DNA of 64,000 nt from Burkholderiales bacterium (GCA_041617635.1 JBFJOO010000006.1:18756-82755); one strand, 5' to 3'. Shown: positions 20,143 through 29,508, numbered from the stretch's first letter. Translations and numbers: made by a program. The notes: a model not told the origin generated them from the sequence alone.

Positions 20143-20694
20143 TCACCGATTCTTCCCTTTCTGCCAAAGGACATCTCCCACCCCCGCGTGGCGGTTCAAC
20201 ACGCGGCCGAGGACGAACAGCAGGTCGGAAAGCCGATTCAGATAAATGCGAGCCGCGACTGAGATCGATTCGGATCGGGCGAGCGCGATCAAATTTCGCT
20301 CGGCCCGCCGGCACACGGTGCGCGCGAGATGGGCAAGCGCTGCGACCCGCGCGCCCCCCGGGAGAATGAATTCCTTCAGAGGCGCGAGGTCGCCGTTGAA
20401 TGCTTCGGTGAGGGTTTCGATGCGTTTCACCTGATTCTCGTGCAGGGCGACGTGGCCGGGAATGCTCAGCTCGCCCCCGAGATCGAAGAGATCGTGCTGG
20501 ATGCCGGTCAATGCGTCCGCTACGGCCTCCGGAAGGGATTCGGCGAGCAGTAATCCAATCGTGGAATTCAGCTCGTCGACCTCGCCGAGCGCGGCGATGC
20601 GGGCGCTGTCCTTCGGCACCCGCGACCCATCACCGAGGCCGGTTTCCCCGGAATCGCCGGTGCGCGTCGTGATCTTCGAAAGTCGGTGGCCCAT
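20143..20694 (-). CDS. Cob(I)alamin adenosyltransferase, PduO type
   Basis: KITTRTGDSG, GEVDELNS, RTVCRRAER and YLNRLSDLLF. Confidence 0.95.
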   Translation of the reverse strand: MGHRLSKITTRTGDSGETGLGDGSRVPKDSARIAALGEVDELNSTIGLLLAESLPEAVADALTGIQHDLFDLGGELSIPGHVALHENQVKRIETLTEAFNGDLAPLKEFILPGGARVAALAHLARTVCRRAERNLIALARSESISVAARIYLNRLSDLLFVLGRVLNRHAGVGDVLWQKGKNR

Positions 20695-21006
20695 TGCGTC
20701 GTGGCGCAGACTATAGCATGTGGTCATGGCTGCATCTGCGACCGAAAGCGTGCATCCGGCGGCGCGCTGTGCCGCGTACAAGCAGTGATATGCGCCGGTG
20801 CGGACCGTCGGCCCACTGCAACGTGTCGGCGAGGTCACGAGGCCGTACGGTGGTCGTCAGCAGGAAATCAGCGTTCGAGAAGGGGTGATTCGAGAACGTC
20901 GCCGGTGCGGGCCAGGGCGACGCGTTGTATCGTTGAGCACTCTGGTGGTCATCAGAACAGTGCGCCAAAGTGGTGCGCGCCGGGAACAGGAAAGGAACTT
21001 CGACCG

Positions 21007-21972
21007 ATGCATGCAACGCTTCCGCATCTTGCGGATACGGACTTTCCCGCAATCTCCCGCAGACAGCTCGAGGTCCTGCAGGTCAATCTCGGCTATCGAT
21101 GCAATCAAAGCTGCGTGCACTGCCACGTGAACGCGGGACCGACCCGAACCGAGATGATGAGCGGGGAGAATGTCGATACCGTGCTCGACTTCCTGGCTGC
21201 GTCCGCGGTGGGCACCCTCGACGTCACGGGTGGTGCGCCCGAGCTGAGCCCGCACTTCAGGCGCCTGGTGACGCAAGCGCGCGCGCTGGGGGTGCACGTC
21301 ATGGACCGATGCAACCTCACGATCCTGCTCGAGCCTGGCCATGAGGATCTCGCCGAGTTTCTCGCGGCGAACTCGGTCGAGGTGGTGGCGTCGCTCCCTT
21401 GCTACCTCGAGGACAATGTCGACCGCCAGCGCGGCAAGGGCGTCTTCGTCCGGAGCATCACGGCGCTGCGCCAGCTGAATGCGCTCGGCTACGGGCGCCC
21501 GGCGAGCGGCCTCAAGCTGAGCCTCGTCTACAACCCCCAGGGGCCGTCGCTTCCCCCCGAGCAAGGCGCGCTCGAGGAAGCGTATCGCATGCATCTCCGT
21601 GCGAACTTCGGCGTGGAGTTCAACGACCTCTTCACGCTCGCGAACATGCCGATCCAGCGGTTCGGCAGCACCCTCATCTCCAAGGGACAGTTCGGCGAGT
21701 ACATGAAGCTGCTGCGCAGCAGTCATCGTGACGAGAACCTCGAGCACGTGATGTGCCGGTCGCTGATCTCCGTGGACTGGCAGGGCTACGTCTACGACTG
21801 CGATTTCAACCAGATGCTCGGATTGCCGCTGCGGATAAACGGGAAATCCCGCGAGCGGCTCGCGGACCTCATCGGCAGAGACCTGTCCGGAACGCCGATT
21901 ACCGTCGCGGATCACTGCTTCGGATGCACCGCGGGGCAGGGGTCGAGCTGCGGAGGCGCGCTGGGTGAGTGA
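21007..21972 (+). CDS. arsS: ArsS-type radical SAM / Cys-rich (DUF3641) protein
   Basis: LQVNLGYRCNQSCVHCH (CX3CX2C), DVTGGAPE, YDCDFNQML and C-terminal HCFGCTAGQGSSCGG. Confidence 0.9.
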   Translation: MHATLPHLADTDFPAISRRQLEVLQVNLGYRCNQSCVHCHVNAGPTRTEMMSGENVDTVLDFLAASAVGTLDVTGGAPELSPHFRRLVTQARALGVHVMDRCNLTILLEPGHEDLAEFLAANSVEVVASLPCYLEDNVDRQRGKGVFVRSITALRQLNALGYGRPASGLKLSLVYNPQGPSLPPEQGALEEAYRMHLRANFGVEFNDLFTLANMPIQRFGSTLISKGQFGEYMKLLRSSHRDENLEHVMCRSLISVDWQGYVYDCDFNQMLGLPLRINGKSRERLADLIGRDLSGTPITVADHCFGCTAGQGSSCGGALGE

Positions 21973-22954
21973 CCACCGCCCGGGTCGCTACTGCCCGCAA
22001 AGCTATCGCTACGCTCCGGCCAGTCTGGCGCGCGAGCCGGAGCTGCTCGCAGACACGCTGTACGTCGTGGGGGGCCTCTACGGCAACGTGCCTGCCCTCG
22101 ATGTCGTCGAGCGGCTTGCGGCCGCCGAAACCGGCACGACGCGGGTGATCTTCAATGGCGATTTCCACTGGTTCGACGTCGACCCTGCGGCGTTCGCCGA
22201 AGTCGACCGCCGCGTGGCGGCGCACTTCGCCCTGCGCGGCAATGTCGAGACCGAGATCGCCTCGGATGACGGCGCGGTCGGGTGCGGCTGCGCCTACCCC
22301 ACGACGGTGAGCGATGCCGACGTCGAACGATCGAACGAGATCCTCGTCCGGTTGCGCGCGACTGCGCGCAGCGTTGCCGCGCGGCGGGCCGCGCTGGCGG
22401 GGCTGCCGATGAACGCAGTGGCGGGCGTCGGCGAAGCCCGCATCGTGGTCGTGCATGGCGATCCGGAATCGCTCGCGGGATGGGGGTTCGCGCACGATCG
22501 CCTCGCCGACCCACGCCACGCCGAACGAATCGCAGCGTGGTGCGCAGCGGCGCGTGCGGACGTCTTTGCGTCGAGCCACACCTGCCTGCCGGTGTGCCGG
22601 GAGCTGGTCGCCCGCGCCCGGCGGTCGGTGGTCATCAACAACGGCGCGGCGGGAATGCCCAATTTCGCGGGCACGCGATTCGGCATCGCGACGCGAATCT
22701 CGCGGCGTCCCGCGCCTCCGGAGCTCGCGCTCTACGGCGTGCGTGTCGGTGCGCTGCGGGTCGACGCGGTGCGCCTCGACTACGACCATGACGACTGGGT
22801 GCGCCGGTTCCTTTCGATGTGGCCGGAAGGATCGCCTGCGCATCGCTCCTACTTCCAGCGGATCGTCGCCGGCCCGTCGTATGACCGATCTTCCGCTCAA
22901 CCGGTGGTTACCATCTTGCCGGAAGCGCGTTACGCAGCCGCTGGGCACGGGTAG
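21965..22954 (+). CDS. Uncharacterised metallophosphoesterase-fold protein
   Basis: GGLYGN, FNGDFHWFD, GNVE, VHGD and SHT resemble calcineurin-like motifs. Its GTG start overlaps the arsS stop. Confidence 0.75.
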   Translation: MSDHRPGRYCPQSYRYAPASLAREPELLADTLYVVGGLYGNVPALDVVERLAAAETGTTRVIFNGDFHWFDVDPAAFAEVDRRVAAHFALRGNVETEIASDDGAVGCGCAYPTTVSDADVERSNEILVRLRATARSVAARRAALAGLPMNAVAGVGEARIVVVHGDPESLAGWGFAHDRLADPRHAERIAAWCAAARADVFASSHTCLPVCRELVARARRSVVINNGAAGMPNFAGTRFGIATRISRRPAPPELALYGVRVGALRVDAVRLDYDHDDWVRRFLSMWPEGSPAHRSYFQRIVAGPSYDRSSAQPVVTILPEARYAAAGHG

Positions 22955-23068
22955 GCGCGGCGTGTAATGTTCGGACGTCTCGCGCGACCGTGAGATAGGT
23001 CGCTCAGCCAGCGCGGGCCGCGCGGCCGTAAAGTTCGCAGGCGCGACTGGATAACCAAGGAGGAACCG

Positions 23069-25270
23069 ATGACCAAGGGCCGGATCGTGCTGATCGTAGC
23101 AATCGCCGTGCTGATCGCGGCGTTCTTTGCGCTCGACCTCGGCCGCTTCTTCAGCATCGAGTATTTCAAGGCGCAGCAGGCCGCGTTCGACGAGTTCTAC
23201 CGGGCGAACCCATTTGCGACGGTGGCAGTGTTCTTCACGGTCTATGTCGCAGTCACCGGGCTGTCGCTGCCGGGCGCGGCGCTCATGACGCTGGTGGCCG
23301 GGGCGATCTTCCAGCTGCTGTGGGGAACCGTGATCGTTTCCTTCGCCTCGTCGATCGGCGCGACGCTCGCGTTCCTGGCGAGCCGGTTCCTGTTTCGCGA
23401 CTGGGTGCAGGGCAAATTCGGCGACAAGCTGCGTGCGATAAACGAAGGCGTTGCGCGCGAAGGGGCGTTCTACCTGTTCACGCTGCGGCTCGTGCCGCTG
23501 TTCCCGTTCTTCGTCATCAATCTCGTCATGGGCCTGACGCCCCTGCGGACGCGAACGTTCTACTGGGTGAGCCAGCTCGGAATGCTCGCCGGGACGATCG
23601 TCTACGTCAATGCCGGGACCCAGATCGCGCGCATCGAGTCTCTCAAGGGCATCCTGTCGCCAGGCCTGCTGATCTCGTTCGCGCTGCTCGGCGTGTTTCC
23701 GCTCATTGCCAAGCGCATTGTCGCGTTCTTCCGCTCGCGCAAGGTGTACGCCCGCTGGAGTAAGCCCGCGGCCTTCGACCGGAACGTCGTCGTCATCGGC
23801 GCGGGGTCCGCAGGGCTCGTGTCGGCCTACATCTCGGCTGCAGTCAAGGCCAAGGTGACGCTCGTCGAGAAGCACCAGATGGGTGGCGACTGCCTGAACA
23901 CGGGATGCGTGCCTTCGAAGGCGCTGATCCGCTCGGCGAAACTGTTGTCGCACATCCGCCGGGCGAAGGAGTTCGGGATCGGATCGGCCTCGGCCGATTT
24001 CGACTTCGCCGACGTCATGGAACGGGTGCAGCGCGTCGTGCGGACAGTCGAGCCGCACGACTCGGCGGAGCGATATACCGGGCTCGGTGTCGAGGTCATC
24101 GCTGGTGACGCGCGCATCACGTCGCCGTGGACCGTCGACGTCCAGACCGCGGACGGCGTGCGCACGCTGACCACGCGCGCCATCGTGATCGCCGCAGGCG
24201 CGCGCCCGTTCGTGCCGCCCATTCCGGGGATCAAGGAGGTCGGATACCTGACTTCCGACAACGTGTGGGAATTGCGCACGCTGCCGAAGCGCCTGGTCGT
24301 GCTGGGCGGCGGGCCGATCGGCTCGGAGCTCACGCAGGCCTTCGCGCGCTTCGGATCGAAGGTCACCCAGGTCGAGATGCTGCCGCGCATCCTGATCCGG
24401 GAGGATCCCGAGGTCTCCGAAATGGTCACCGAGCGCTTCCGCGCCGAGGGCATCGAGGTGCTGGTGGACCATAAGGCGACGGCCTTCCGCGTCGAGAACG
24501 GCGAGAAAGTGATGCTCGCCGAACACGCGGGGCGCGAAGTGCGCATCCCCTTCGACGCGGTCCTCGTCGCGGTGGGGCGGGTGGCGAACACTCAGGGATA
24601 CGGGCTCGAGGAGCTCGGAATCGGCACGACGAAGGCGCGGACTGTCGAGACGAACGAGTATCTGGAGACGATCTATCCGAACATCTACGCTTGCGGGGAC
24701 GTGGCGGGGCCGTTTCAGTTCACCCACACTGCGGCGCACCAGGCCTGGTTTGCGGCGGTCAATGCGCTCTTCGGCACGTTTCGCAAGTTCAAGGCGGACT
24801 ACTCGGTGATTCCCTGGGCAACGTTCACTGAGCCCGAGGTGGCGCGGGTCGGGCTGAACGAGATCGAGGCCCGCGAAAAAGGGGTCGCCCACGAAGTCAC
24901 GACCTACGGCATCGACGATCTCGATCGGGCAATCGCGGACGAGGAGGCCCACGGCTTCGTGAAGGTGCTCACGGTCCCGGGAAAGGACAAGATTCTCGGT
25001 GTCACCATCGTCGGCGAGCATGCGGGAGACCTGATTGCCGAGTACGTGACGGCAATGAAGCACGGTCTGGGGCTCAACAAGATCCTCGGCACGATCCACA
25101 TCTATCCGACCCTTGTCGAGGCGAACAAGTACGCGGCCGGCAACTGGAAGCGCGCGCACGCGCCTGCGACGGTGCTGAGGTGGCTCGAGCGCTATCACGC
25201 ATGGCGGCGCGGCGGCGACGCGGGAACCCGCGAGGCCGGCGCTCGGGCCGGGCGCTCGGCGCAGGCCTAG
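23069..25270 (+). CDS. TVP38/VTT (DedA-like) membrane domain fused to a class I flavin-disulfide reductase (LpdA/MerA-like)
   Basis: N-terminal LSLPGA...LRLVPLFPF, then GAGSAG, GGDCLNTGCVPSK, GGGPIG, CGDV and IHIYPT. AGGAGG RBS. Confidence 0.92.
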   Translation: MTKGRIVLIVAIAVLIAAFFALDLGRFFSIEYFKAQQAAFDEFYRANPFATVAVFFTVYVAVTGLSLPGAALMTLVAGAIFQLLWGTVIVSFASSIGATLAFLASRFLFRDWVQGKFGDKLRAINEGVAREGAFYLFTLRLVPLFPFFVINLVMGLTPLRTRTFYWVSQLGMLAGTIVYVNAGTQIARIESLKGILSPGLLISFALLGVFPLIAKRIVAFFRSRKVYARWSKPAAFDRNVVVIGAGSAGLVSAYISAAVKAKVTLVEKHQMGGDCLNTGCVPSKALIRSAKLLSHIRRAKEFGIGSASADFDFADVMERVQRVVRTVEPHDSAERYTGLGVEVIAGDARITSPWTVDVQTADGVRTLTTRAIVIAAGARPFVPPIPGIKEVGYLTSDNVWELRTLPKRLVVLGGGPIGSELTQAFARFGSKVTQVEMLPRILIREDPEVSEMVTERFRAEGIEVLVDHKATAFRVENGEKVMLAEHAGREVRIPFDAVLVAVGRVANTQGYGLEELGIGTTKARTVETNEYLETIYPNIYACGDVAGPFQFTHTAAHQAWFAAVNALFGTFRKFKADYSVIPWATFTEPEVARVGLNEIEAREKGVAHEVTTYGIDDLDRAIADEEAHGFVKVLTVPGKDKILGVTIVGEHAGDLIAEYVTAMKHGLGLNKILGTIHIYPTLVEANKYAAGNWKRAHAPATVLRWLERYHAWRRGGDAGTREAGARAGRSAQA

Positions 25271-25272
25271 TC

Positions 25273-26085
25273 ATGCGGATCCTGCAGGCTGGCTTCACTG
25301 CCCTGATGGCTCTGGCGCCCGGCGCGGTGCAAGCGCAGTTCGACCATTCGCACTCGGCTTGGAACGCGCTCGTCGCGCGCCATGTCGAGGTGATCGATGG
25401 GGGCAAAGCGTCGCAGGTTCGCTACGCGGGATTCAAGAAGGATCGTGCGGCGCTCCGCGGGTATCTCGACTCGCTCTCCGCGGTCAAGCGGGCGGAATTC
25501 GACGGCTGGTCGAAGGCCGAGCAGCTCGCGTTCCTGATCAACGTGTACAACGCGTTCACGGTCGAGCTGATCGTGCGCAACTATCCGGGGATCGAGTCGA
25601 TCCGCGACCTGGGCAATCTGCTCCGCAGCCCATGGCGTATACGCTTCTTCACTCTGCTCGGCGGGGAGCAGCATCTGGACGCCATCGAGCACGACATGAT
25701 CCGCGAGCCCGGCGTATTCGACGAGCCGCGCATCCACTTCGCCGTCAATTGCGCATCGGTGGGCTGCCCGATGCTGCGCGCAGAGGCCTATGTCGCGCCG
25801 CGCCTCGATGCCCAGCTCGAGGATCAGACGGTGCGCTTCCTTTCGGATCGGTCGCGGAACCGCTATGACCCGCAGCGCGGGGTGCTTGAGGTCTCGATGC
25901 TGTTCGACTGGTATCGTAAGGACTTCGAAATGGGCTTGCGTGGGATCGAGTCCCGCGAAAGCTTCTTCGCTGCGCACGCGCACCTGCTCGCCGACTCGCC
26001 GTCCGGACGGCAGGTGATCGCCTCCGGCGCCGCGCCCATCAGGTTCCTCGAATACGACTGGGACCTGAACGACGCGAGGCGCTGA
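25273..26085 (+). CDS. DUF547 domain protein, probably exported
   Basis: Signal-peptide-like N-terminus. LAFLINVYNA, RIHFAVNCASVGCP and YDWDLN. Confidence 0.88.
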   Translation: MRILQAGFTALMALAPGAVQAQFDHSHSAWNALVARHVEVIDGGKASQVRYAGFKKDRAALRGYLDSLSAVKRAEFDGWSKAEQLAFLINVYNAFTVELIVRNYPGIESIRDLGNLLRSPWRIRFFTLLGGEQHLDAIEHDMIREPGVFDEPRIHFAVNCASVGCPMLRAEAYVAPRLDAQLEDQTVRFLSDRSRNRYDPQRGVLEVSMLFDWYRKDFEMGLRGIESRESFFAAHAHLLADSPSGRQVIASGAAPIRFLEYDWDLNDARR

Positions 26086-26089
26086 CCGC

Positions 26090-26773
26090 GTGCGCATCTC
26101 GGCCATTGTTCCGGTATTGAACGAAGCGGCGGTCATTGATGCCACGCTCGGCGCGCTCGCCCCGCTCCGTGCGCGCGGGCACGAGGTGATCTTGGTCGAC
26201 GGCGGATCGACCGACGCCACCTTGGCCATCGCCGCCGGCAAGGCAGACCGGGTGATCACCGCGCCCCGCGGTAGGGCGGACCAGATGAACGCTGGTGCGG
26301 GGGTGGCGTCGGCGGACATTCTGGTCTTCGTGCACGCGGACACTTTGCTACCCGCTGACGCCGATCTCGCGATCGCGCGCGGGCTGGCCAGCCCAGATGG
26401 AGCATGGGGCCGCTTTGACGTGTTGATCGACAGCCGCCGCTGGCTGCTTGGCTGCGTCGCGTGGGCGATGAACACGCGGTCCCGTATCACCGGCATCGCC
26501 ACCGGTGACCAGGCGATCTTCATGCGGCGCGCCGAGTTCGAGGCGGTCGGCGGTTTCCCGCGCCTCGCGCTGATGGAAGACGTCGCGATGACCCGCCGTC
26601 TCAAGCGCCGCTCGTCGCCGATTTGTCTGCGGGATCGCGTCGTCACGTCGGGCCGGCGATGGGAATCGGCCGGCGTGCTGCGCACGATCGCGCTCATGTG
26701 GTGGTTGCGATTCCGATTCTTCCTCGGCGCGTCGCCCGATCGCCTTGCGCGGAGCTATGACGCGCGTGACTAG
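26090..26773 (+). CDS. GT2 glycosyltransferase, TIGR04283 type (rSAM/selenodomain-associated transferase 2)
   Basis: IVPVLNE, VDGGSTD, FVHADT, GDQAIF, MEDV and TSGRRW. Confidence 0.9.
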   Translation: MRISAIVPVLNEAAVIDATLGALAPLRARGHEVILVDGGSTDATLAIAAGKADRVITAPRGRADQMNAGAGVASADILVFVHADTLLPADADLAIARGLASPDGAWGRFDVLIDSRRWLLGCVAWAMNTRSRITGIATGDQAIFMRRAEFEAVGGFPRLALMEDVAMTRRLKRRSSPICLRDRVVTSGRRWESAGVLRTIALMWWLRFRFFLGASPDRLARSYDARD

Positions 26774-27458
26774 CCAGGCGCCCGTTGTCGAGAGCGAGGT
26801 TGCAAGCGTCGTTGCAACTGTGGTTGTGTTCGCCAAGGCACCGGTACCGGGAGCGGCCAAGACGCGCCTCATACCGCGTCTCGGCCCCGAAGGCGCCGCG
26901 CGGCTCCACGCGGCGCTCGTCGAGCGCGCGCTCGCGACTGCGCAGCAGGCGGCGCTCGGCAGCGTGGAGCTATGCTGCGCGCCTGACGCAGAGCATCCGT
27001 TCTTTGCGACATGCGCGGAGCGATACGGCGTGGCGCTCACGACGCAGGCCACCGGCGATCTCGGCGCGCGAATGCTGAGCGCGTTCGACCGCGTGGTGCC
27101 AAATCGCGGTGCAACGCTGCTCATCGGGTCGGATTGCCCGGCGCTCACGCCCGAACACCTGCGCGAAGCCGCGGCCGCGTTGGCGGCGGGGCGCGATGCC
27201 GTGTTCGGCCCGGCCGAGGACGGCGGCTACGTTCTGGTAGGTCTTCTGCGCGCCTCGCCTCGCGTATTCGAAGGAATCGAATGGGGCGGGCCGGACGTGA
27301 TGTGCGAGACGCGCGCGCGGCTCGCAGCGCTAGGCTGGCGATGGCACGAGCTCGCCGAGCTCTGGGACGTCGATCGTCCCGCAGATCTCGCGCGGCTCGC
27401 CGAGCGCATCGAGGACGGCGCACGCTACCTTGCAGCGGCGATGAATGCCGGGGCCTAG
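26757..27458 (+). CDS. DUF2064/CofC-like transferase, TIGR04282 type (rSAM/selenodomain-associated transferase 1)
   Basis: FAKAPVPGAAKTRL, QATGDLGARM, IGSDCP, GPAEDGGYVLVG and WDVD. Start uncertain (26745-26766). Confidence 0.9.
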   Translation: MTRVTSQAPVVESEVASVVATVVVFAKAPVPGAAKTRLIPRLGPEGAARLHAALVERALATAQQAALGSVELCCAPDAEHPFFATCAERYGVALTTQATGDLGARMLSAFDRVVPNRGATLLIGSDCPALTPEHLREAAAALAAGRDAVFGPAEDGGYVLVGLLRASPRVFEGIEWGGPDVMCETRARLAALGWRWHELAELWDVDRPADLARLAERIEDGARYLAAAMNAGA

Positions 27459-27491
27459 GTTTCCGAGGCGCGCGTCGGTGCGCGCGGCACG

Positions 27492-28601
27492 ATGAAGCGG
27501 TTACTGCTTGTCGGCGGCGGTCACAGCCATGTCGCGGTGCTGCGCAGTCTCGGCGACCATCCGATGCCGGAGGTCGAGGCGACGCTCGTCAGCCCGGAGC
27601 GGTTCACGCCGTACTCGGGAATGCTCCCGGGGCTCATCGCGGGCCACTATGCGCACCGCGAATGCCACATCGATCTCGCCGCGCTTGCCCGCTTCGCCCA
27701 TTGCCAGCGTGTCGAGGCGACCGTCACGATGCTGGATCTCGAGCGCGGGATCGCCGTGGCGGCGGACGGTCGCGAGCATGCCTGGGATGTCATCTCGCTC
27801 GACATCGGCTCCAGCCCGGCCATGGCGGGCGTACCGGGTGCGCGCGAGCGGGCGATCGCCGTGAAACCCGTACACCGCCTGCTCGCTGCGCTGGAGGACG
27901 TTGCGGTCCGGGCACGCCACGGTTCCCTGCGCCGGATCCTCTTTGTCGGAGGCGGAGCGGCGGGCGTCGAGGTCCTGCTCGCGTTGCAGCACCGCTTGGC
28001 GACCGAGGGATTTCGGAGCGTGGAGATGCTGCTCGCGATCGATGCCGATGCGCCGCTGCCCGGTCACAACGAACGGGTTCGCGCCGCATTTGCGCGCGTC
28101 CTGGCCGACCGGGGCGTGCGCGTTCACGCGCGCAGCCGGGTCGTGCGCGTCGACGAGGGCGTGGCGCTGACCGAAGGGGGCGAGCGAATCGGTTTCGACG
28201 CACTCGTCTGGACAACCGGTGCGGCCGCCGCGCCGTGGCCGGGAGAGTCGGGTCTGAGCGTCGATCCGAGCGGATTCGTGCTCGTCGACGAGACGTTGCA
28301 ATCGACGTCGCATCCAAGGGTGTTCGCGACCGGCGATATCGCCACGATCCGCGGCCACCCGCGTCCGAAATCCGGCGTGCACGCGGTCCGTCATGGCCCG
28401 CCCCTGGTGCGCAACCTCCGCCGCGTGCTCGCCGGCGAGCGGCTCGAGCGGTTCGTTCCGCAGCGCGACGCCTTGGCGCTGATCTCGACGGGCAATCGTT
28501 ACGCAATCCTGTCGCGCGGCACCTGGGCGCTTAAAGGCGCCTGGGTGTGGCGCTGGAAGGACTGGCTGGACCGCAGGTTCATGCGGCGTTACGACGTGTA
28601 G
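27492..28601 (+). CDS. FAD-dependent pyridine nucleotide-disulfide oxidoreductase, SelD N-terminal-like (TIGR03169 type)
   Basis: LLVGGGHSH, YSGMLPG, PKSGVHAVRHGP and WKDWLDRRFM. Confidence 0.88.
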   Translation: MKRLLLVGGGHSHVAVLRSLGDHPMPEVEATLVSPERFTPYSGMLPGLIAGHYAHRECHIDLAALARFAHCQRVEATVTMLDLERGIAVAADGREHAWDVISLDIGSSPAMAGVPGARERAIAVKPVHRLLAALEDVAVRARHGSLRRILFVGGGAAGVEVLLALQHRLATEGFRSVEMLLAIDADAPLPGHNERVRAAFARVLADRGVRVHARSRVVRVDEGVALTEGGERIGFDALVWTTGAAAAPWPGESGLSVDPSGFVLVDETLQSTSHPRVFATGDIATIRGHPRPKSGVHAVRHGPPLVRNLRRVLAGERLERFVPQRDALALISTGNRYAILSRGTWALKGAWVWRWKDWLDRRFMRRYDV

Positions 28602-28791
28602 CGCGCAGACGAGAGCCGGTCGCTGGCTTTCGCCAAGCAGCAGGTAGACCGAGCGATTGCCGCCCCTTCTTGCTCGGGCGCCGCGTCGGCGACGTGACGG
28701 ACGAGCGTTGCCTCGCTCTGAAGGATCGGCCAAACTGCCGGGAGCGCCGACGTGGAATGCGCTCGACCGGTCTCTTTTTCTCAGAGCTGTC

Positions 28792-29508
28792 ATGTCACGA
28801 CTTCTCTTCCGCGATGACGCATATCTGCGCGCTTGTGAGACACGGGTCACGGGCGTCGACGCACGCGGCATCCGCCTCGAGGCGACCGTGTTCTATGCGA
28901 ATTCCGGCGGACAGCCGGGCGATACCGGCACGCTCCGGCTCGAGAACGGAACGGAGGTCCGTGTCATCGACACGGTCAAGGGGAATGGACCCGACGAAGT
29001 GGTCCACGTTCCGGCGCCCGACAGCCCGCCAGTGTCGGTGGGAATGGGCGTGCAAGCCGAGATCGACTGGCAGCGGCGGTATCGGCACATGCGCCTGCAT
29101 ACCTGCATGCATCTCCTGTGCGCCGCGGTCCCGTACGCGGTCACGGGTGGACAGATCGCGGCCGACAAAGCGCGACTCGATTTCGACACGCAGGGCAATC
29201 CGCTGGACCGGGACGCCGTGGCGACGCGCTTGAACGAGCTCATTGCGCAGGGCGCGCCGGTTGGGGCGCGTTGGATCACCGAGTCGGAACTCGCGGAGAG
29301 CCCGCAACTCGTGCGCACGATGTCGGTCAAGCCGCCGACCGGACAAGGTCGCGTGAGACTGCTCGAAGTGAGCGGCATCGATCTGCAGCCCTGCGGGGGC
29401 ACGCACGTCGGCAACACCGCGGAGATCGGCCGGGTCGTCGTGCTCAAGATCGAGAACAAGGGGCGGCAGAACCGGCGCGTAGTCGTCGGGTTCGCCGGCG
29501 AGGAGTGA
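28792..29508 (+). CDS. alaX: AlaX alanyl-tRNA editing protein
   Basis: FYANSGGQPGD, HMRLHTCMH and PCGGTHV zinc/editing motifs. Confidence 0.93.
   Translation: MSRLLFRDDAYLRACETRVTGVDARGIRLEATVFYANSGGQPGDTGTLRLENGTEVRVIDTVKGNGPDEVVHVPAPDSPPVSVGMGVQAEIDWQRRYRHMRLHTCMHLLCAAVPYAVTGGQIAADKARLDFDTQGNPLDRDAVATRLNELIAQGAPVGARWITESELAESPQLVRTMSVKPPTGQGRVRLLEVSGIDLQPCGGTHVGNTAEIGRVVVLKIENKGRQNRRVVVGFAGEE

What the first reader, a model, noticed from the sequence alone, without database searches (positions are those of the whole stretch)
21007..28601. Complete seven-gene ArsS-type radical SAM / transferase operon with no adjacent arsM
Seen in sequence: seven co-oriented genes, most overlapping or a few bp apart. 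They are ArsS-type rSAM, a metallophosphoesterase, a VTT-reductase fusion, exported DUF547, TIGR04283- and TIGR04282-type transferases, and a SelD-N-terminal-like flavoprotein. No arsenite methyltransferase, arsR, arsC or selD lies in the window. Established: ArsS adenosylates dimethylarsenite in cyanobacterial arsenosugar synthesis together with ArsM, and these families were linked as a radical SAM/selenodomain system whose product is not defined. Inference: this may be a self-contained pathway (reduce, adenosylate, hydrolyse or dephosphorylate, glycosylate, export) making or salvaging an As- or Se-containing sugar from an externally supplied methylated metalloid.
Basis: partly seen in the sequence, partly recalled or inferred. 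Interest (0 to 1): 0.7.

Follow-up and report, generated by a model that had tools for sequence, protein, structure and literature searches.

The report
ArsM-less ArsS arsenic-sugar gene cluster
This is a real seven-gene operon built around the arsenic-sugar enzyme ArsS; it is a common but experimentally unstudied proteobacterial gene set that mostly occurs, as here, without the arsenic methylase expected to supply ArsS with its substrate.

Summary
Seven co-oriented, tightly packed genes lie at 21007-28601: ArsS, a degenerate metallophosphoesterase-fold protein (g2), a DedA/VTT-MerA-like reductase fusion, exported DUF547, the TIGR04283 and TIGR04282 transferases, and a TIGR03169 NDH-2-like flavoprotein.

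The cluster is not rare.
- ArsS occurs in 115 of 301 sampled Burkholderiales genomes.
- About 83% of those genomes lack a cysteine-complete ArsM.
- In 89 proteobacterial loci the core arsS-GT2-DUF2064 is present in over 80%. All seven genes recur together in four other genomes.

The link to arsenic rests on association. In 15 of 89 loci a cysteine-complete ArsM sits inside the same cluster, and those ArsS sequences are interleaved in the tree with ArsM-less ones.

The window's own genome (91% complete) has no such ArsM. It has two ArsM-like paralogs that lack two of the three arsenic-binding cysteines. It also has selD-mnmH, senA-senB and arsR-arsI-acr3 at other sites.

The new point concerns g2. 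It occurs only in ArsS-positive genomes (59 of 59), never shares a cluster with ArsM (0 of 25), and often sits beside an importer (11 of 25 against 1 of 64). This fits a salvage entry from pre-methylated arsenic, but tree-controlled tests were underpowered.

Verdict: a variant of a known cassette, of moderate interest.

The parts
21007..21972 (+). arsS: radical SAM enzyme of the ArsS family (321 aa). It has the CNQSCVHC cluster motif and a C-terminal DUF3641 domain with HCFGCTAGQGSSCGG.
   Evidence: TIGR04167 458 bits against cut-off 300; PF12345 183 bits. The motifs are invariant across 41 relatives. No solved structure of a close relative exists.
21965..22954 (+). g2: metallophosphoesterase-fold protein (329 aa) with a degenerate dinuclear site and four invariant cysteines (C10, C107, C109, C207). 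It overlaps arsS by 8 bp.
   Evidence: No HMM hit at 1e-3; Metallophos E=0.12. More than 7300 homologs. Invariant GGLYGN, NGDFHWFD, GNVETE, GCGCAYP, HGD and SHTC. AF2 pLDDT 91; top Foldseek matches 1nnw, 3rqz, 3qfm. Found in 59 of 301 Burkholderiales genomes, all of them ArsS-positive.
23069..25270 (+). g3: fusion of an N-terminal DedA/VTT membrane domain with a class-I flavoprotein disulfide reductase (733 aa). The redox pair is CLNTGC. There is no C-terminal Cys pair.
   Evidence: PF09335 73 bits plus Pyr_redox_2 211 bits and Pyr_redox_dim 99 bits. Closest solved relative is the MerA core 4k8d, 254 bits. TIGR02053 scores 386, below its cut-off of 454. Present in 48 of 89 related loci.
25273..26085 (+). 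g4: exported DUF547 protein (270 aa from the ATG at 25273) with an invariant NCASxGCP (CxxxxC) motif.
   Evidence: PF04784 84 bits. Invariant C160 and C165. AF2 pLDDT 88 but no PDB fold match. Follows g3 in 24 of the 26 loci that have it.
26090..26773 (+). g5: GT2-type transferase of family TIGR04283 (227 aa).
   Evidence: TIGR04283 265 bits against cut-off 182; Glycos_transf_2 53 bits. Present in 74 of 89 related loci.
26745..27458 (+). g6: DUF2064 / TIGR04282 protein with a CofC/MobA-like nucleotidyltransferase fold. The start is uncertain: TTG at 26745 or ATG at 26757.
   Evidence: TIGR04282 206 bits against cut-off 134; PF09837 113 bits. Solved relative 3cgx, 66 bits. Present in 72 of 89 related loci and paired with g5 in 70.
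27492..28601 (+). g7: TIGR03169 flavoprotein ('N-terminal to SelD' family, 369 aa), similar to type II NADH dehydrogenases.
   Evidence: TIGR03169 412 bits against cut-off 310. Closest solved relatives are YjlD/NDH-2 and FSP1. Present in 27 of 89 related loci.

Best explanation
This is a complete, ArsM-less version of the widespread proteobacterial ArsS-TIGR04283-TIGR04282 cassette, the 'arsenosugar-type' gene set.

The most likely working is as follows.
1. ArsS uses SAM to put a 5'-deoxyadenosyl group on trivalent dimethylarsenic, giving 5'-deoxy-5'-dimethylarsinoyl-adenosine. This reaction is established for ArsS of the arsenosugar pathway and inferred here from family membership.
2. The universal partner pair, the GT2-type transferase and the CofC-like DUF2064 protein, then builds the riboside conjugate (inferred).
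3. The DedA-fused reductase and the exported DUF547 protein place a late step or the product at the cell envelope (inferred).

Because the genome has no cysteine-complete ArsM, the methylated arsenic is probably taken from outside the cell. The ArsS-dependent, cysteine-rich phosphoesterase-fold protein g2, with one of the two flavoproteins, is proposed to prepare that substrate, for example by reducing dimethylarsenate or by binding and handing over the trivalent form (speculative).
For: Membership and conservation:
- HMM scores are above the curated cut-offs for ArsS, TIGR04283, TIGR04282 and TIGR03169.
- The ArsS reaction and its dependence on ArsM-made methylarsenite are described in PMC13598754 and bioRxiv 10.1101/2022.09.23.509062.
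- In 89 clade-A loci the counts are GT2 74, DUF2064 72, VTT-reductase 48, DUF547 26, g7 27 and g2 25. All seven genes occur together in L033, L039, L040 and L042.

Arsenic link:
- A cysteine-complete ArsM lies inside the same cluster in 15 of 89 loci.
- ArsM-bearing and ArsM-less ArsS sequences are interleaved in the tree. The ArsM label needs at least 9 changes, of which 3 are forced by well-supported branches.
- Across whole genomes, ArsM is enriched in ArsS-positive genomes: 20 of 115 against 9 of 186.

No ArsM in this genome:
- The best NF008823 hits score 213 and 210 bits, below the cut-off of 263.
- Both read GVG and SNGV where ArsM has GCG and SNCV.

g2:
- It is found only in ArsS-positive genomes, 59 of 59.
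- It shares a cluster with ArsM in 0 of 25 loci, and sits next to an SSS-like or PhnD-like importer in 11 of 25 loci against 1 of 64.
- Its phosphoesterase fold has lost the ligands of one metal site and the catalytic His, and has gained four invariant Cys.

The genome also carries arsR-arsI/cadI-acr3. ArsI-type enzymes act on methylarsenite. The sequence comes from samples labelled marine metagenome.
Against: - No experiment exists on any proteobacterial member of this cassette. Only ArsS has a known reaction, and that comes from cyanobacteria.
- The g2/ArsM and g2/importer associations are raw counts. Tree-controlled independent pairs were too few to be significant (median p 1 and 0.25).
- Across whole genomes, g2 and ArsM do co-occur, in 7 of 59 g2-positive genomes.
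- 49 of 89 loci have neither ArsM nor g2 in the cluster, so g2 cannot be the general answer.
- This cluster has no importer, and none resembling the SSS-like one was found in the genome.
- ArsS turnover is redox-neutral, so the two reductases have no assigned need.
- It would be surprising if 38% of Burkholderiales genomes kept a pathway that depends on scarce external dimethylarsenic.
- The genome is 91% complete.
Confidence: 0.5

Rival explanations
1. This is an ordinary arsenosugar pathway in which methylation is done in trans. The methylase would be either a canonical ArsM hidden in the unassembled ~9% of the genome or one or both ArsM-like paralogs (C16:37053-37841 and C42:12983-14326).
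For: The two paralogs score 213 and 210 bits on NF008823, far above generic methyltransferases at 90 bits or less. They keep the Cys equivalent to ArsM C224. This class (190-228 bits) occurs in 15 sampled genomes, all ArsS-positive. Related 'GVG-type' methyltransferases lie next to arsS in L055, L057 and L116. The genome is 91% complete.
Against: Both paralogs are below the curated cut-off and lack the Cys of the GCG and SNCV motifs that bind As(III) in solved ArsM structures. They are not near the cluster. The C16 copy sits with an ArsR-rhodanese regulator and a DsrE-like protein, which suggests sulfur or selenium chemistry. The C42 copy carries a weak MerC-like tail. The chance that a true ArsM lies in the missing 9% is small, given that only about 17% of ArsS-positive genomes have one.
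Confidence: 0.2
2. In ArsM-less clusters the ArsS homolog acts on something other than dimethylarsenite. Candidates are inorganic As(III) or MAs(III), which would give arsono- or methylarsinoyl-adenosine, or another soft-centre substrate containing Se, Sb or S. The product would then not be a classical dimethylated arsenosugar.
For: About 83% of ArsS-positive Burkholderiales genomes have no cysteine-complete ArsM. 49 of 89 loci have neither ArsM nor g2. The family was first named for selenoprotein members (model name rSAM_SeCys), and g7 belongs to a family otherwise fused to SelD. Some ArsM-like genes in ArsS-positive relatives carry an in-frame TGA.
Against: ArsS sequences from ArsM-bearing and ArsM-less clusters are 57-81% identical, share all invariant motifs and are interleaved in the tree. 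This argues for one chemistry. Selenium use in this genome is accounted for by selD-mnmH and senA/senB at other loci. No selenium gene lies in or beside any of the 120 clusters examined with my query set.
Confidence: 0.2
3. The seven genes are two or more unrelated units lying side by side: arsS-g2, g3-g4, g5-g6 and g7. They would not form one pathway.
For: The modules are gained and lost separately in relatives (g3 48, g4 26, g7 27, g2 25 of 89). There is a 114-bp gap between g2 and g3. No transcript data exist. Promoter and terminator scans were uninformative.
Against: g2 is found only in ArsS-positive genomes. g5-g6 accompany ArsS in over 80% of loci. g3-g4 and g7 recur next to ArsS across beta-, gamma- and alphaproteobacteria in the same order. 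Five of the six junctions are overlaps or gaps of 33 bp or less.
Confidence: 0.08

Closest known systems
Synechocystis sp. PCC 6803 ArsM-ArsS arsenosugar pathway (first committed steps)
   Same: The radical SAM enzyme is of the same family (TIGR04167, well above cut-off), with the same cluster motif and C-terminal Cys-rich domain. Relatives of this cluster carry ArsM inside it.
   Different: There is no ArsM in the cluster or, as far as the 91% complete assembly shows, in the genome. In Synechocystis arsS is co-transcribed with arsM. Here arsS is translationally coupled to a phosphoesterase-fold protein instead. The host is a heterotrophic-type Burkholderiales bacterium, not a cyanobacterium.
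NCBIfam/TIGRFAMs 'rSAM/selenodomain-associated' cassette: TIGR04167 + TIGR04283 + TIGR04282 (now named arsenosugar biosynthesis proteins)
   Same: All three families are present, adjacent and above their cut-offs. This is the core found in over 80% of related loci.
   Different: The names come from co-occurrence, not assays. The window adds four further conserved partners (g2, DedA-MerA-like fusion, DUF547, TIGR03169) that those three family models do not cover. It lacks the TIGR04169 peroxidase-like partner.
Mercuric reductase MerA (core domain), for g3
   Same: MerA is the best solved relative (254 bits). g3 has the redox-active CxxxxC pair and a Tyr rather than His before the PT..E segment, as seen in the alignment.
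   Different: g3 has no NmerA domain and no C-terminal Cys pair. It scores below the TIGR02053 cut-off and is fused to a DedA/VTT membrane domain.
Calcineurin-like metallophosphoesterases such as SapH (3qfm) and Pfu-1218608 (1nnw), for g2
   Same: The overall fold and the order of the five motifs are the same. The Asp, Asn and two His that form one metal site are retained.
   Different: DxH is replaced by GLY, GNHE by GNVE and GHxH by SHTC. There is an inserted invariant GCGC and an N-terminal invariant Cys. The Pfam score is below threshold.

Membership tests
ArsS (TIGR04167, arsenosugar biosynthesis radical SAM protein) | Whole-protein HMM score above the curated cut-off | tested here: met
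   458.4 bits against cut-off 300.
ArsS (TIGR04167, arsenosugar biosynthesis radical SAM protein) | CX3CX2C radical SAM cluster motif and C-terminal DUF3641 domain with a Cys-rich motif | tested here: met
   C32, C36 and C39 (CNQSCVHC) and C304, C307 and C315 are invariant. PF12345 scores 183 bits.
ArsS (TIGR04167, arsenosugar biosynthesis radical SAM protein) | Genomic partnership with an As(III) SAM methyltransferase (ArsM), as in the characterised system | tested here: not met
   There is no ArsM in the window. The best genome hits score 213 and 210 bits, below the cut-off of 263, and lack two As-binding Cys. In relatives this feature is also absent from most loci.
ArsS (TIGR04167, arsenosugar biosynthesis radical SAM protein) | Adenosylation of DMAs(III) to 5'-deoxy-5'-dimethylarsinoyl-adenosine | not testable with these tools
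   This needs an enzyme assay. The reaction is described for ArsS in PMC13598754.
TIGR04167/TIGR04283/TIGR04282 cassette | All three families adjacent and above their cut-offs | tested here: met
   Scores of 458, 265 and 206 bits against cut-offs of 300, 182 and 134. The trio recurs in 70 or more of 89 loci.
Metallophosphoesterase (Pfam Metallophos / Metallophos_2), for g2 | HMM score above the gathering threshold | tested here: not met
   PF00149 scores 13.2 bits against 21.5, E=0.12. A few homologs carry a precomputed PF12850 hit.
Metallophosphoesterase (Pfam Metallophos / Metallophos_2), for g2 | Calcineurin-like fold | tested here: met
   Foldseek probability 1.00 to 1nnw, 3rqz and 3qfm, with target-normalised TM 0.65-0.75, on a model with pLDDT 91.
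Metallophosphoesterase (Pfam Metallophos / Metallophos_2), for g2 | Complete dinuclear metal site and catalytic His (DxH, GDxxDR, GNH[DE], H, GHxH) | tested here: not met
   The invariant residues read GGLYGN, NGDFHWFD, GNVETE, HGD and SHTC. Assigning them to motif positions rests on motif order from established knowledge, not on a structural superposition.
Mercuric reductase MerA, for g3 | Curated HMM cut-off, C-terminal Cys pair and NmerA domain | tested here: not met
   TIGR02053 scores 386 bits against 454. No CC follows the aligned core, and the N-terminus is a VTT domain.
ArsM (As(III) S-adenosylmethionine methyltransferase), for the two paralogs on C16 and C42 | Curated HMM cut-off and the three As(III)-binding cysteines | tested here: not met
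   They score 213 and 210 bits against 263. GCG is replaced by GVG and SNCV by SNGV; only the third Cys is kept.
Selenoneine pathway (SenA/SenB/SenC) | SenB-type glycosyltransferase inside the cluster under study | tested here: not met
   SenB (TIGR04348, 406 bits) and SenA (NF041186, 513 bits) exist but lie on contig C11, unlinked to the window.

The most novel reading that the evidence does not exclude
g2 would found a new family of cysteine-dependent enzymes derived from the metallophosphoesterase fold. Such an enzyme would prepare imported pentavalent methylated arsenic (DMAs(V) or MAs(V)) for ArsS, that is, act as a reductase or carrier of pentavalent organoarsenicals. The ArsS cassette would then have two interchangeable entry modules: ArsM for synthesis from arsenite, or importer plus g2 for salvage of environmental methylarsenic. 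A gene for bacterial methylarsenate reduction was being sought in 2015 (PMC4457076), and I know of no report that it has been found.
Probability: 0.2. Interest if true: 0.7.

Novelty: new variant of a known kind. Interest (0 to 1): 0.4.

Why it matters
Only the first two steps of arsenosugar synthesis (ArsM, ArsS) have assigned enzymes. The later steps, and the whole pathway in non-photosynthetic bacteria, are unassigned.

This analysis shows that the ArsS cassette is very common in Proteobacteria and usually lacks ArsM. That raises a concrete question: where does the substrate come from, or is the substrate different?

It also names testable candidates:
- g2, a protein found only where ArsS is found, as an alternative entry step;
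- a DedA-fused MerA-like reductase with an exported CxxxxC protein as an envelope module;
- the GT2/DUF2064 pair as the universal later steps.

If the salvage reading holds, many heterotrophic bacteria would convert dissolved methylated arsenic into arsenosugar-type compounds. That would change how arsenic cycling in water and soil is modelled.

Tried and rejected
- NF038099 (the 'AsSugarArsM' model) was searched in 80 ArsS-positive genomes. It matched nothing anywhere, including the control genomes, so the result is uninformative.
- The sigma-70 promoter and terminator scan of 20500-29000 gave no promoter and one terminator-like hairpin inside g3, fewer than in shuffles. It is uninformative.
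- Sequencing runs: only five DNA 'marine metagenome' runs hold the stretch and no RNA runs do, so co-transcription is untestable.
- The tree-controlled independent-pairs test of g2 against ArsM and g2 against importer had too few informative pairs (median p 1 and 0.25). The raw Fisher values (0.009 and 1e-6) must be read as suggestive only.
- The DUF547 model is confident (pLDDT 88), but no PDB fold matched at E<=0.001. There was no PDB sequence match either.
- Literature searches for DUF3641, DUF2064, TIGR04167, TIGR04282, TIGR04283, TIGR03169 and DUF547 returned no paper on the function of this cluster.
- TIGR04169, the peroxidase-like partner seen in other phyla, is absent from this genome.
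- Reading g3 as a true mercuric reductase and reading the two ArsM-like paralogs as ArsM were both rejected on defining residues.
- Horizontal transfer of the cluster was considered. GC content is even across the window, at 0.65-0.70.

Full report
**Observation.** The window is contig C6:18756-82755 of a 4.58-Mb, 176-contig assembly that is 91% complete, with 67% G+C. An earlier agent's note calls the organism an uncultured Burkholderiales bacterium. The nearest ArsS relatives found here are Burkholderiales MAGs.

Seven + strand genes fill 21007-28601. HMM scans give these assignments:
- ArsS: TIGR04167, 458 bits against cut-off 300, with DUF3641.
- g3: a 733-aa fusion of a VTT/DedA domain with a class-I pyridine-nucleotide disulfide reductase.
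- g4: DUF547.
- g5: TIGR04283, 265 bits against 182.
- g6: TIGR04282, 206 bits against 134.
- g7: TIGR03169, 412 bits against 310.

The second gene (g2) has no family hit at 1e-3, and Metallophos scores E=0.12. Five of the six junctions are overlaps or gaps of 33 bp or less; the g2-g3 gap is 114 bp.

The flanking genes are unrelated. Upstream on the minus strand lie a CDF transporter, an RskA-type anti-sigma factor, an ECF sigma factor and a PduO-type cobalamin adenosyltransferase. An AlaX-like gene lies downstream.

**How common is it?** TIGR04167 matches 115 of 301 evenly sampled Burkholderiales genomes, 113 of them over the cut-off, in 54 of 143 genera. A pattern scan of 185,579 species genomes found at least 597 ArsS relatives. 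The 80 best (62-81% identity) come from beta-, gamma-, alpha- and zetaproteobacteria.

I fetched 40 loci from the Burkholderiales sample and used those 80 loci. I then mapped the window's proteins onto all of them. Among 89 loci with a clade-A ArsS (at least 56% identity) and at least 8 kb downstream, the counts are:

| Gene | Loci of 89 |
|---|---|
| GT2 (g5) | 74 |
| DUF2064 (g6) | 72 |
| VTT-reductase (g3) | 48 |
| DUF3047 (absent from the window) | 29 |
| g7 | 27 |
| DUF547 (g4) | 26 |
| g2 | 25 |
| Cysteine-complete ArsM | 15 |
| SSS-like transporter | 8 |
| PhnD-like binding protein | 4 |

All seven window genes occur together, in the same order, in L033, L039, L040 and L042. The genes are therefore co-conserved, with a fixed core (arsS, g5, g6) and several optional modules. 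g4 follows g3 in 24 of its 26 occurrences. A second ArsS clade (about 50% identity, 8 loci) has none of these partners, apart from a g2 gene beside it in L030.

**The arsenic link.** In 7 of the 40 Burkholderiales loci a methyltransferase lies inside the cluster. It carries every ArsM cysteine: TSACCD, YYGCG, SNCVxN and YGECLGG. In the wider set there are more of this type, plus a second type with LCCPVDYD and SNCVLN directly after arsS.

On an ArsS tree of 121 sequences the ArsM-bearing, g2-bearing and other loci are interleaved. The ArsM label needs at least 9 changes and g2 at least 17; well-supported branches force 3 and 10 of these. The enzyme is thus the same lineage with or without ArsM, which argues for the same chemistry.

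That chemistry is the adenosylation of DMAs(III) to 5'-deoxy-5'-dimethylarsinoyl-adenosine in a redox-neutral cycle (PMC13598754). In Synechocystis arsS is co-transcribed with arsM and uses the methylarsenite that ArsM makes (bioRxiv 10.1101/2022.09.23.509062).

**Is there an arsM elsewhere?** The curated ArsM model (NF008823, cut-off 263) gives no hit over threshold in the window's genome. The two best hits are C16:37053-37841 (213 bits) and C42:12983-14326 (210 bits); the next scores 90 bits.

Aligned to solved ArsM structures, both read GVG for GCG and SNGV for SNCV, and keep only the third cysteine. tblastn with the cluster-embedded ArsM of relatives finds nothing better than these two, at 38% identity.

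Over the same 301 genomes:
- 19 have an ArsM over the cut-off, and 13 of those are ArsS-positive.
- Adding the lower-scoring AS3MT-type, about 20 of 115 ArsS-positive genomes (17%) have a cysteine-complete or probable ArsM, against 9 of 186 ArsS-negative genomes.

ArsM is therefore enriched with ArsS, yet about 83% of ArsS-positive genomes lack it. The 'missing arsM' is the rule in this order, not a peculiarity of this window.

- selD is present at C2:31095-32150, beside mnmH, the selenouridine synthase gene.
- senB (TIGR04348, 406 bits) and senA (NF041186, 513 bits) form a divergent pair on C11.
- arsR, an ArsI/CadI-family gene and acr3 lie together on C150.

Selenium use thus has its own loci, and the cell has ordinary arsenic resistance, including a candidate methylarsenite lyase.

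**g2.** The family is large, with more than 7300 hits, almost all labelled 'hypothetical'. In 38 sequences the invariant residues include C10, GGLYGN, NGDFHWFD, RGNVETE, GCGCAYP, HGD, SHTC and NNGAAGMPN.

The AlphaFold model is confident (pLDDT 91, pTM 0.91). Its best structural matches are metallophosphoesterases, including the Ap4A hydrolase SapH. I read the invariant residues against the five classical motifs; this is established knowledge of the superfamily applied by motif order, not by superposition.
- Retained: the Asp, Asn and two His of one metal site.
- Replaced: the Asp and His of motif I, the catalytic His of motif III, and the last His of motif V (now Cys207).
- Added: three more invariant cysteines.

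Across whole genomes g2 occurs in 59 of 301 genomes, and every one is ArsS-positive (Fisher p about 1e-30). At cluster level it never shares a locus with a cysteine-complete ArsM (0 of 25 against 15 of 64, p=0.009). It lies beside an SSS-like or PhnD-like importer in 11 of 25 loci, against 1 of 64 (p=1e-6).

These p values ignore shared ancestry, and the independent-pairs test on the tree had too few informative pairs to confirm them. Across whole genomes g2 and ArsM do co-occur, in 7 of 59 genomes.

**The other parts.**
- g3's reductase domain is closest to the MerA core (254 bits) and has the CLNTGC redox pair. It lacks the C-terminal Cys pair and scores below the MerA cut-off. Its DedA domain has no cysteine.
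- g4 has a signal-like N-terminus and an invariant CxxxxC motif. Its confident model matches no solved fold.
- g6 resembles 3cgx, a structural-genomics 'nucleotide-diphospho-sugar transferase', and more weakly CofC.
- g7 resembles type II NADH dehydrogenases and FSP1.

**Interpretation.**

Shown:
- The operon is a genuine member of a conserved ArsS cassette.
- The cassette is tied to arsenic by recurrent inclusion of true ArsM genes.
- g2 occurs only where ArsS occurs.

Inferred:
- ArsS here adenosylates trivalent dimethylarsenic.
- g5 and g6 carry out the later riboside-forming steps.
- g3 and g4 act at the envelope.

Speculative:
- The substrate is methylated arsenic from outside the cell.
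- g2, with a flavoprotein, reduces or delivers that substrate.

The main alternatives are these. The cysteine-poor ArsM-like paralogs may do the methylation; they occur only in ArsS-positive genomes, 15 of 15. Or ArsM-less ArsS enzymes may take a different substrate.

**Novelty and score.** The three-gene core is already a named cassette in NCBIfam, and earlier notes of this scan hold about 190 findings that mention it. This instance is not rare.

To my knowledge, and in the literature searched, three things are not described:
- the ArsM-less majority state in Proteobacteria;
- the four extra conserved partners;
- the behaviour of g2 as a possible alternative entry module.

I class it as a new variant of a known kind, with moderate interest (0.4).

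Noticed in passing
Own genome, contigs C16:37053-37841(-) and C42:12983-14326(-), outside the window: Two ArsM-like methyltransferases score 213 and 210 bits on NF008823 and lack two of the three As-binding cysteines. This class (190-228 bits) was seen in 15 of 301 Burkholderiales genomes, all ArsS-positive, and some copies in relatives carry an in-frame TGA. The C16 copy lies beside an ArsR-rhodanese fusion and a DsrE-like gene. The C42 copy has a weak MerC-like membrane tail.
   Followed up: partly
Own genome, contig C11, about 35.5-37.9 kb: A divergent senB (TIGR04348, 406 bits) and senA (NF041186, 513 bits) pair, that is, selenoneine biosynthesis genes. selD lies elsewhere (C2:31095-32150), next to mnmH.
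   Followed up: partly
Own genome, contig C150:4051-6045: An arsR, ArsI/CadI-family (NF041414, 127 bits, with CC pairs) and acr3 (TIGR00832, 372 bits) operon. It is a candidate methylarsenite lyase within ordinary arsenic resistance.
   Followed up: partly
Related loci L012, L014, L019, L027, L030, L047, L048, L050: A second ArsS clade, about 50% identical to the window's ArsS but still above the TIGR04167 cut-off. None of the cassette partners lies next to it, except g2 in L030. Its context was not examined.
   Followed up: no
Related loci, e.g. L018:2972-3715, L033:6692-7519, L017:6955-8340, L028:6961-8715: Relatives carry further cluster genes that the window lacks. These are an exported DUF3047 protein (29 of 89 loci), an SSS-like transporter between arsS and g2, a PhnD/PhnE-like ABC importer, a C92-family amidase, and in L020 a GST and a haloacid-dehalogenase-like (HAD) gene (the HAD assignment is from the N-terminal sequence only).
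   Followed up: partly
window 25273-26085: The DUF547 protein gives a confident AlphaFold model (pLDDT 88) that matches no solved structure at E<=0.001. It carries an invariant NCASxGCP motif. The fold has no solved representative.
   Followed up: partly
Locus L075 (3.6-kb contig labelled Deinococcota MAG): An ArsS 70% identical to the window's lies on a short contig binned as Deinococcota, among hits that are otherwise all proteobacterial. This is probably a binning error rather than a transfer.
   Followed up: no
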